A stretch of DNA of 3,359 nt from Escherichia coli. GTDB taxonomy: Bacteria; Pseudomonadota; Gammaproteobacteria; Enterobacterales; Enterobacteriaceae. Below are positions 3,010 to 3,359 of the stretch, piece by piece. A program made the position numbers and the translations under genes. Positions within the stretch are counted from its first letter, which is position 1. The number at the start of each line of letters is the position of its first letter. A model generated the notes under the pieces. The model did not search any database, had not been told where the DNA came from, and saw nothing but the letters and a program-made list of their open reading frames with translations. Where the stretch lies: assembly GCF_003334385.1 (NCBI RefSeq), contig NZ_QOWN01000094.1. One strand, 5' to 3'.

Positions 3010-3359
3010 ATGACACAGACAGAATCAGCGATTCTGGCGCACGCCCGGCGATGTGCGCCAGCGGAGTCGTGCGGCTTTGTGGTAAGCACGCCGGAGGGGG
3101 AAAGATATTTCCCCTGCGTGAATATCTCCGGTGAGCCGGAGGCGTATTTCCGTATGTCGCCGGAAGACTGGCTGCAGGCAGAAATGCAGGGTGAGATTGT
3201 GGCGCTGGTCCACAGCCACCCCGGTGGTCTGCCCTGGCTGAGTGAGGCCGACCGGCGGCTGCAGGTGCAGAGTGATTTGCCGTGGTGGCTGGTCTGCCGG
3301 GGGACGATTCATAAGTTCCGCTGTGTGCCGCATCTCACCGGGCGGCGCTTTGAGCACGG
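3010..3359 (+). CDS. K: Tail tip assembly protein gpK, 3'-partial (first ~116 codons); N-terminal MPN/JAMM-type domain
   Basis: ATG at 3010..3012 lies 5 nt after the L stop, and the frame stays open to the window end. It is absent from the ORF track only because it has no in-window stop. The translation MTQTESAILAHARRCAPAESCGFVVSTPEGERYFPCVNISGEPEAYF…LVHSHPGGLPWLSEADRRLQVQSDLPWWLVCRGTIHKFRCVPHLTGRRFEHG matches lambda gpK and contains an H-x-H-x7-S-x2-D motif. No clear Shine-Dalgarno precedes it, so the exact start is less certain than for M and L. Confidence 0.88.
   Translation, partial: MTQTESAILAHARRCAPAESCGFVVSTPEGERYFPCVNISGEPEAYFRMSPEDWLQAEMQGEIVALVHSHPGGLPWLSEADRRLQVQSDLPWWLVCRGTIHKFRCVPHLTGRRFEH

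What the first reader, a model, noticed from the sequence alone, without database searches (positions are those of the whole stretch)
3211..3252. Complete JAMM/MPN metalloprotease-type motif (H-x-H-x7-S-x2-D) in the gpK N-terminal domain
The translation HSHPGGLPWLSEAD at residues 68-81 fits the JAMM zinc-site signature exactly, and candidate upstream glutamates (E19, E29, E31) are present. gpK-family proteins are predicted to combine an MPN/JAMM domain with a downstream NlpC/P60-type domain, which here would lie beyond the window end (established domain assignment). The substrate and role in tail assembly or infection are, as far as I know, not firmly established. This is the most mechanistically open feature in the window.
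Basis: partly seen in the sequence, partly recalled or inferred. Interest (0 to 1): 0.5.

Follow-up and report, generated by a model that had tools for sequence, protein, structure and literature searches.

The report
Lambda gpK JAMM protease active site

The parts
3010..3359 (+). 5' part of gene K (codons 1-116 of 247), the long-form ORF that runs off the window end
   Evidence: Translation. Identical at protein level to lambda K, with one synonymous change at codon 23. PGAP and some lambda-type records annotate this start. PHROG 30 'minor tail protein', E=1e-163.
3016..3321 (+). JAMM/MPN+ (Prok-JAB) metalloprotease domain, residues 3-104
3058..3075 (+). P17-x-E19-x-C21-G22 motif; E19 (3064-3066) is the inferred catalytic glutamate that positions the zinc-bound water
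   Evidence: Conservation: E19 87/88, C21 83/88, G22 88/88, P17 82/88. Aligns with 'nEaCGl' of 2KKS and 'svEvCGFL' of PfJAMM1. The role follows from AfJAMM E22 (PMC300881).
3211..3252 (+). H68-S69-H70-x7-S78-x2-D81 zinc-site signature, the reported feature
   Evidence: Translation. H68, H70 and D81 are 88/88; S69 and S78 are each 84 Ser plus 4 Thr. All are invariant in 74 close alleles. Roles follow from AfJAMM H67/H69/D80 (Zn ligands) and S77 (oxyanion).
3154..3156 (+). Met49 codon, the start codon of the classic 199-aa lambda K annotation; most likely an internal codon
   Evidence: Annotated as the start in OM418625 and NC_019711. The codon is CTG in 3 of 74 alleles. The aligned column is Ile in 55 of 88 relatives and Met in 12. 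The 199-aa form matches only model positions 63-112 of Prok-JAB.
3138..3142 (+). GGAGG inside codons P44-E45, annotated as the ribosome-binding site for the classic start
   Evidence: Regulatory feature in OM418625. Sequence read. It varies to GGAAG in some alleles. Whether it drives an internal start was not testable here.
3002..3009 (+). gene L stop codon (TAA, 3002-3004) and the 5-nt spacer before the K ATG, the probable site of L-to-K translational coupling
   Evidence: Sequence. In most of 144 unique K ORFs the nearest in-frame start lies -8 to +12 nt from the L stop. Distant loci show L/K overlaps of 1 nt.
3340..3359 (+). first residues of the NlpC/P60 (C40) peptidase domain, which starts at residue 111 and continues beyond the window

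Best explanation
The motif is the active site of the N-terminal JAMM/MPN+ zinc metalloprotease domain of lambda tail tip assembly protein K, a 247-aa two-peptidase protein (JAB plus NlpC/P60) that starts at window 3010. By homology with AfJAMM and PfJAMM1, H68, H70 and D81 bind a zinc ion. E19, in the P-x-E-x-C-G motif, positions and deprotonates the zinc-bound water. S69 braces E19, and S78 stabilises the tetrahedral intermediate. The substrate is the product of the next gene, gpI. K cuts gpI's N-terminal ubiquitin-like domain (residues 14-97 of the 223-aa form) away from its C-terminal structural domain. I infer the cut falls after the invariant G96 (G96|A97). The C-terminal part then stays in the tail tip as the trimeric plug under the tape measure, while K and the Ubl domain are not found in the virion. 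Shown here: the motif, the domain, the fold, residue conservation, the true start, K-I linkage and the conserved Gly. Taken from the literature: the cleavage itself and its timing. Inferred: the exact scissile bond and the roles of individual residues.
For: - Identity: the window is 99.2% identical to lambda H-M-L-K, and its K part equals lambda K at protein level.
- Domain: Pfam Prok-JAB at 1e-13 and NlpC/P60 at 8e-13; K-family profile against PDB gives 2KKS 4.6e-14 and PfJAMM1 1e-11, with E-x-C-G and HSH..S..D aligned.
- Conservation: E19 87/88; H68, H70 and D81 88/88; S78 Ser or Thr in 88/88.
- Start at 3010: variable sites in codons 1-48 by codon position are 11/6/31, pN/pS is 0.21, and the other frames carry stops; distant homologs begin at or before residue 1 in 75 of 88; K starts abut L stops.
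- K-I link: a gpI-like ORF lies directly downstream in 158 of 161 loci; the Ubl domain (Pfam PF06805, residues 14-97) ends in P92 and G96, both 17/17, and A/S97 16/17.
- Literature: K listed as a JAMM protein (PMC300881); cleavage of TAPI's Ubl by TAPK's JAB predicted (PMC1779556); Davidson talk reporting that gpK cleaves gpI's Ubl only after gpI joins the tip complex (PMC12908700); gpK absent from virions by mass spectrometry and only gpI residues ~134-223 resolved; the F-pyocin gpI homolog loses its N-terminal region and deletion of the gpK homolog gives tip-less tubes.
Against: - No enzymology or mutant data could be generated here.
- The experimental support for gpI cleavage is a conference summary, not a full paper found in the library.
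- The scissile bond G96|A97 is inferred only from conservation; cryo-EM density starts at about residue 134, so the mature N-terminus is not defined.
- The 3010 ATG has no obvious Shine-Dalgarno sequence, whereas Met49 has a GGAGG 11 nt upstream, so an additional short product cannot be excluded.
Confidence: 0.85

Rival explanations
1. Anti-defence deubiquitinase: the JAB domain of K exists, wholly or additionally, to strip host ubiquitin-like proteins that Bil-type defence systems conjugate to the central tail fibre gpJ during tail assembly.
Against: K is nearly always followed by its own Ubl-bearing gpI gene, in 158 of 161 loci, with an invariant Gly at the Ubl end; that already explains why the domain is there. 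The conference report assigns the cleavage to gpI. K is described as required for tail assembly (PMC12617516), with no reference to any host defence system. No direct test exists.
Confidence: 0.08
2. The classic annotation is right: K is the 199-aa protein starting at Met49. The HSH..S..D stretch would then be a remnant of a decayed JAB domain with no catalytic Glu, and K would act only through its NlpC/P60 domain.
For: Reference lambda-derived records start K at window 3154, with a GGAGG 11 nt upstream. The 3010 ATG lacks a visible Shine-Dalgarno sequence. Many 199-aa entries exist in databases.
Against: Codons 1-48 evolve as coding sequence (variable sites 11/6/31 by codon position, pN/pS 0.21, stops in the other frames), and the 3010 ATG is kept in 74 of 74 alleles, while codon 49 is CTG in 3. 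The Met49 column is Ile in 55 of 88 relatives. Residues 1-48 are modelled with high confidence (pLDDT block means 97-98) as part of the JAB domain. The 199-aa form covers only model positions 63-112 of Prok-JAB, at 22.5 bits against 51.6. K starts abut L stops across diverse loci.
Confidence: 0.03
3. Catalytically inert MPN scaffold: the JAB domain only binds the Ubl domain of gpI, or other tip proteins, as a chaperone, and some other protease does the cleavage.
For: Inactive MPN- domains that act as scaffolds are well known (Rpn8, CSN6 and Abraxas appear among the fold matches). [quoted passage not shown]
Against: All five catalytic positions are kept at 87-88 of 88 across relatives down to 32% identity; inactive MPN- domains are defined by the loss of these residues (established knowledge). 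The conference report states that gpK cleaves gpI.
Confidence: 0.03
4. A different substrate: the JAB domain (or K as a whole) is the unidentified protease that converts tape measure gpH to gpH* by cutting near its glycine-rich C-terminal region.
For: The protease for gpH cleavage is stated to be unknown (PMC12617516). gpH has a Gly-rich hydrophobic segment (window 1507-1611) whose composition resembles the segment after the Ubl domain in gpI.
Against: gpH has no recognisable Ubl domain next to that segment. Cleavage is reported to occur after tail assembly, whereas K acts during tip assembly and is absent from virions. I did not test this.
Confidence: 0.03

Closest known systems
Phage lambda tail tip assembly protein K (gpK; TAPK family; PHROG 30)
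   Same: It is this protein. The K residues in the window are identical to lambda's, with the same L-K-I-J gene order and the same JAB plus NlpC/P60 architecture described by Iyer et al. 2006.
   Different: Only the annotation differs.
Archaeal stand-alone JAMM proteases: AfJAMM (1R5X) and Pyrococcus furiosus JAMM1 (5LD9; 5LDA with the Ubl SAMP2)
   Different: K is fused to a second peptidase domain (NlpC/P60). It appears to cut a linear peptide bond inside a Ubl-fusion protein rather than an isopeptide bond, and it works in virion assembly rather than in cellular Ubl recycling.
Eukaryotic JAMM deubiquitinases (Rpn11, CSN5, AMSH, BRCC36; MEROPS M67)
   Different: The eukaryotic enzymes carry insertions (Ins-1, Ins-2), need partner subunits, and cleave isopeptide-linked ubiquitin or Nedd8. 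K is a minimal prokaryotic JAB domain of about 105 residues.
Bacterial JAB deubiquitinases of defence systems (CBASS Cap3, Bil system BilC)
   Different: Those are host defence components working with E1/E2 enzymes. K is phage-encoded, has no E1/E2 partner in its gene cluster, and sits in the tail operon.
F-pyocin PA0639 / PA0640 pair (gpK / gpI homologs)
   Same: The gpK homolog is absent from mature particles and is needed for tip assembly. [quoted passage not shown]
   Different: That preprint did not identify the protease. I did not check which domains PA0639 has.

Membership tests
JAMM/MPN+ metalloprotease (Pfam Prok-JAB PF14464; MEROPS M67 type) | Signature E-x(n)-H-[ST]-H-x7-S-x2-D complete | tested here: met
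   E19 ... H68-S69-H70-x7-S78-x2-D81. Positions align with those of 2KKS and PfJAMM1.
JAMM/MPN+ metalloprotease (Pfam Prok-JAB PF14464; MEROPS M67 type) | Significant, near full-length match to the family profile | tested here: met
   PF14464, residues 3-104, model positions 3-112 of 114, 51.6 bits, E=1e-13. NCBIfam desampylase NF041370 matches but falls below its equivalog cutoff (29.8 against 130 bits), so K is not an equivalog of that enzyme.
JAMM/MPN+ metalloprotease (Pfam Prok-JAB PF14464; MEROPS M67 type) | MPN fold | tested here: met
JAMM/MPN+ metalloprotease (Pfam Prok-JAB PF14464; MEROPS M67 type) | Catalytic residues conserved among relatives, which distinguishes MPN+ from inactive MPN- | tested here: met
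   E19 87/88; H68, H70 and D81 88/88; S78 84 Ser plus 4 Thr, at 32-58% identity.
JAMM/MPN+ metalloprotease (Pfam Prok-JAB PF14464; MEROPS M67 type) | Zinc binding and peptidase or isopeptidase activity | not testable with these tools
   Needs biochemistry. The only relevant report is a conference summary stating that gpK cleaves gpI (PMC12908700).
Lambda TAPK / gpK tail tip assembly protein family | JAB plus NlpC/P60 two-domain architecture | tested here: met
   on the lambda continuation of the ORF. 168 of 171 related loci span both domains of the K-family profile. The window itself holds only the JAB domain and the first residues of NlpC/P60.
Lambda TAPK / gpK tail tip assembly protein family | Position in the tail operon between gpL-type and gpI-type (Ubl) genes | tested here: met
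   L is upstream in the window. I is downstream in lambda and prophages. A gpI-like ORF lies directly downstream in 158 of 161 loci. M-L-K order holds in distant loci.
Lambda TAPK / gpK tail tip assembly protein family | Needed for tail assembly but absent from the virion | not testable with these tools
   Literature only: not detected by mass spectrometry in virions (PMC10721106), and described as required for tail assembly with unknown location (PMC12617516).
NlpC/P60 (C40) cysteine peptidase (second domain, mostly outside the window) | Profile match and conserved Cys-His-His/polar triad | tested here: met

The most novel reading that the evidence does not exclude
Besides maturing gpI, the K JAB domain may double as a counter-defence deubiquitinase that removes host Bil-type ubiquitin-like tags from the central tail fibre gpJ during tip assembly. 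Hor et al. have speculated this in print, but it is untested. A second reading that my evidence does not exclude is that lambda makes two K products, the 247-aa JAB plus NlpC/P60 enzyme and a 199-aa NlpC/P60-only form from the internal Met49 start with its GGAGG, each with a separate role.
Probability: 0.1. Interest if true: 0.55.

Novelty: already known. Interest (0 to 1): 0.15.

Why it matters
The feature is a textbook-phage example of a ubiquitin-like domain paired with a JAMM protease, used as a proteolytic checkpoint in virus assembly. It bears on the prokaryotic origins of ubiquitin signalling. Nothing about the motif itself is new. This check does add three practical points:
- The catalytic glutamate is E19, not E29 or E31.
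- E19 and the first half of the domain lie in what the classic lambda annotation, still propagated in lambda-derived GenBank and RefSeq phage records, treats as an L-K intergenic gap. Analyses using the 199-aa entry miss or halve the JAB domain; one 2020 review that ran HHpred on the 199-aa form reported only a peptidase domain.

Tried and rejected
- Rfam scan of the window: no RNA family at gathering threshold, so nothing non-coding competes with the coding reading.
- The search for related loci with the diverse alignment A1 failed because no stretch was conserved enough. I seeded with single distant proteins instead.
- Programmed -1 frameshift from K into I, considered because I lies in the -1 frame and overlaps the K 3' end by 64-103 nt in lambda: I saw no X_XXY_YYZ slippery heptamer in the overlap by eye, none of the 161 K loci with enough downstream DNA had K and I in one ORF, and the K-I fusion proteins in the database are clusters of one or two sequences. 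I set this aside as probable sequencing or pseudogene artefacts.
- E29 and E31 as the catalytic Glu: rejected because they are not conserved.
- Literature searches for a paper on the true K start or a full paper on gpK-gpI cleavage found none.
- NCBIfam desampylase equivalog: the match is far below cutoff, so I did not file K there.
- I could not measure zinc-ligand distances in the model because coordinates are not exposed.

Full report
**What the window is.** The 3359-base window is the H (3' part)-M-L-K (5' part) segment of a lambda-type tail operon. It is 99.2% identical over its full length to phage lambda and its laboratory derivatives, and 99.5% identical to prophages in many E. coli genomes. 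Its ORFs are:
- H, running to position 1980
- M, 1977-2306
- L, 2306-3004
- an ORF that starts at ATG 3010 and runs off the end

Compared with lambda there are 27 substitutions. Only one falls in K, and it is synonymous (codon 23), so the K residues in the window are those of lambda K.

**The observation.** Positions 3211-3252 translate to HSHPGGLPWLSEAD, in frame with ATG 3010, which makes them residues 68-81. The pattern H-x-H-x7-S-x2-D occurs once in the six-frame translation, against 0.019 expected from 2000 dinucleotide-preserving shuffles.

**Domain and fold.** I took the rest of the ORF from lambda, giving 247 aa.
- Pfam assigns Prok-JAB (PF14464) to residues 3-104, covering model positions 3-112 of 114, at E=1e-13. 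It assigns NlpC/P60 (PF00877) to residues 111-224 at E=8e-13.
- The closest solved sequence is the JAMM-type protein 2KKS.
- A profile built from 88 diverse relatives hits 2KKS (4.6e-14), 2KCQ, annotated Mov34/MPN/PAD-1 (4e-13), and Pyrococcus JAMM1 (about 1e-11). In these alignments the family's 'prEaCG' lies on 'svEvCG' and 'HSHp...pSeaD' lies on 'HSHIACPPIPSGKD'.
- An AlphaFold2 model built on that alignment is very confident (mean pLDDT 97.3, pTM 0.91).

**Which glutamate.** Across 88 cluster representatives at 32-58% identity to lambda K:
- E19 is kept in 87, inside a P17-x-E19-x-C21-G22 motif.
- H68, H70 and D81 are invariant.
- S69 and S78 are each Ser in 84 and Thr in 4.
- E29 is most often Gly, and E31 is variable.

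In AfJAMM, the equivalents of H68, H70 and D81 (H67, H69, D80) are the zinc ligands. E22 hydrogen-bonds the zinc-bound water and acts as the general acid-base. S77 flanks the oxyanion hole, and the Ser between the two His braces the Glu (PMC300881). By homology these roles pass to K residues E19, H68, S69, H70, S78 and D81. That transfer is inference from homology, not a measurement.

**The start codon.**
- Deposited lambda-type records use three different K starts: the window equivalents of 3154 (Met49, 199 aa, with an annotated GGAGG at 3138-3142), 3118 (GTG), and 3010 (247 aa, and PGAP on prophages). With the 3154 start, E19 and the first half of the JAB domain would not be translated.
- Among 74 distinct alleles from 80 viral contigs plus lambda, the 3010 ATG is always present. 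Variable sites in codons 1-48 split 11/6/31 by codon position, pN/pS is 0.21 (against 0.10 and 0.125 for the rest of the gene), and both other frames carry stops. Codon 49 is CTG in three alleles.
- In the distant relatives the Met49 column is Ile in 55 of 88, and 75 of 88 proteins begin at or before lambda residue 1.
- In most of 144 unique K ORFs, the nearest in-frame start lies within -8 to +12 nt of the L stop codon, which fits translational coupling.
- Residues 1-48 are modelled with high confidence (pLDDT block means 97-98) as a helix and two strands inside the JAB domain.
- The 199-aa form matches only model positions 63-112 of Prok-JAB (22.5 bits, E=1e-4). Database entries of 199 aa carry only the NlpC/P60 assignment.
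- A 2020 review that ran HHpred on the 199-aa form reported only a peptidase domain (PMC7291167).

I conclude that the functional K is the 247-aa protein (28.3 kDa). An extra internal-start product cannot be excluded by sequence alone.

**The substrate.**
- In lambda, the next gene I encodes a protein whose residues 14-97 (223-aa numbering) match Pfam Lambda_tail_I. Iyer, Burroughs and Aravind identified the N-terminal region of tail assembly protein I as a ThiS/MoaD-like ubiquitin-fold domain (PMC1779556).
- I collected 172 loci, including K relatives at 31-59% identity to their seeds. A K-family profile found K in 171 of them. Of the 161 with at least 500 nt downstream, 158 have a gpI-like ORF directly after K. 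The three exceptions (L090-L092) carry a K homolog with an insertion, and L092 has a gpI-like ORF further downstream.
- In 17 gpI homologs below 60% mutual identity, the Ubl domain ends in I-x-P92-V-[IV]-x-G96-[A/S]97, with P92 and G96 invariant. A short Gly/Ser linker and a hydrophobic Gly-rich segment follow.
- This is the arrangement expected for a JAMM enzyme that cuts after a Ubl C-terminal glycine. I infer G96|A97 as the scissile bond.

**What was already known.**
- Lambda K was listed as a JAMM protein of unknown function in 2003 (PMC300881).
- In 2006 Iyer et al. described TAPK as JAB plus NlpC/P60 and TAPI as a Ubl-domain protein, and predicted that the JAB domain releases the Ubl domain by cutting at its C-terminal glycine.
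- Cryo-EM and mass spectrometry found no gpK in virions and resolved only gpI residues ~134-223, forming a trimeric plug under the C-terminus of gpH (PMC10721106, PMC12617516).
- A summary of A. [quoted passage not shown] **Rivals.**
- The anti-Bil reading is possible as an extra role. It is not needed to explain the domain, given the near-universal K-I pairing.
- The reading that K is only the 199-aa protein and the motif a relic is contradicted by all the start-codon evidence above.
- An inert MPN scaffold is contradicted by conservation of every catalytic residue.
- A role in gpH to gpH* cleavage is untested and fits the reported timing poorly.

**Verdict.** This is lambda gpK itself, so the novelty class is 'already known' and the interest is low. 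What remains open is modest: a peer-reviewed demonstration and the exact cleavage site, the function of the equally well conserved NlpC/P60 triad (C121, H187, H199), and the untested anti-defence idea.

Noticed in passing
window 3010, 3118 and 3154 (K start candidates): Deposited lambda-type records annotate three different K starts, giving proteins of 247, 211 and 199 aa. The classic 199-aa form leaves 3005-3153 as an apparent L-K intergenic gap that in fact encodes the first half of the JAB domain, including the catalytic Glu.
   Followed up: yes
L001 9651-9753 (lambda K/I junction, just beyond the window end): Gene I start annotations also disagree. The classic 223-aa form starts at 9651 in the -1 frame and overlaps K by 103 nt. 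The PGAP 190-aa form starts at the GTG at 9750, which cuts into the Pfam Lambda_tail_I (Ubl) domain; that domain begins at M14 of the classic form (ATG 9690). A distant homolog (L085) aligns from its own Met1 to lambda M14.
   Followed up: partly
window 1507-1611 (gpH residues 697-731): This is a hydrophobic, glycine-rich segment of the tape measure (MVGIVGSIGSAIGGAVGGGASASGGTAIQAAAAKF). It lies in the region where gpH is reported to be cleaved to gpH* by an unknown protease, and its composition resembles the Gly-rich hydrophobic segment that follows the Ubl domain in gpI.
   Followed up: no
window 2822-2941 (gpL C173, C182, C205, C208, C212): There is a cluster of cysteines in the C-terminal domain of gpL. 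[quoted passage not shown]
   Followed up: no
window 1-3359 versus lambda (L001 6001-9359): Of the 27 substitutions relative to lambda, 21 are in H (5 amino-acid changes), 2 in M (V17A), 3 in L (M95L and a non-conservative Y124D), and 1 synonymous change in K. The window is therefore a lambda-like prophage or variant rather than laboratory lambda.
   Followed up: partly
proteins P0016, P0031, P0069, P0078, P0090, P0112, P0115 (K-I fusions) and P0020, P0035, P0042, P0048, P0051 (L-K fusions): Public databases hold rare proteins that fuse K with I or L with K, mostly in clusters of one or two sequences (P0020 has 11). They are probably frameshift errors or pseudogenes, though Iyer et al. also noted a JAB-TAPI fusion in an E. 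coli prophage, and PHROGs 28576 and 35166 look like K-I fusions.
   Followed up: no
L090-L092, about 2501-3582: The K homologs in three metagenomic viral contigs span 1082 nt for 203 matched residues, which implies an insertion of about 470 nt or a split gene. In L092 the gpI-like ORF lies further downstream (4011-4709).
   Followed up: no
window 1977-1980 and 2304-2308: Stop and start codons overlap at H/M (ATGA) and M/L (TGATG), and only 5 nt separate L from K. This tight coupling of the tail-tip genes is typical of this operon.
   Followed up: partly
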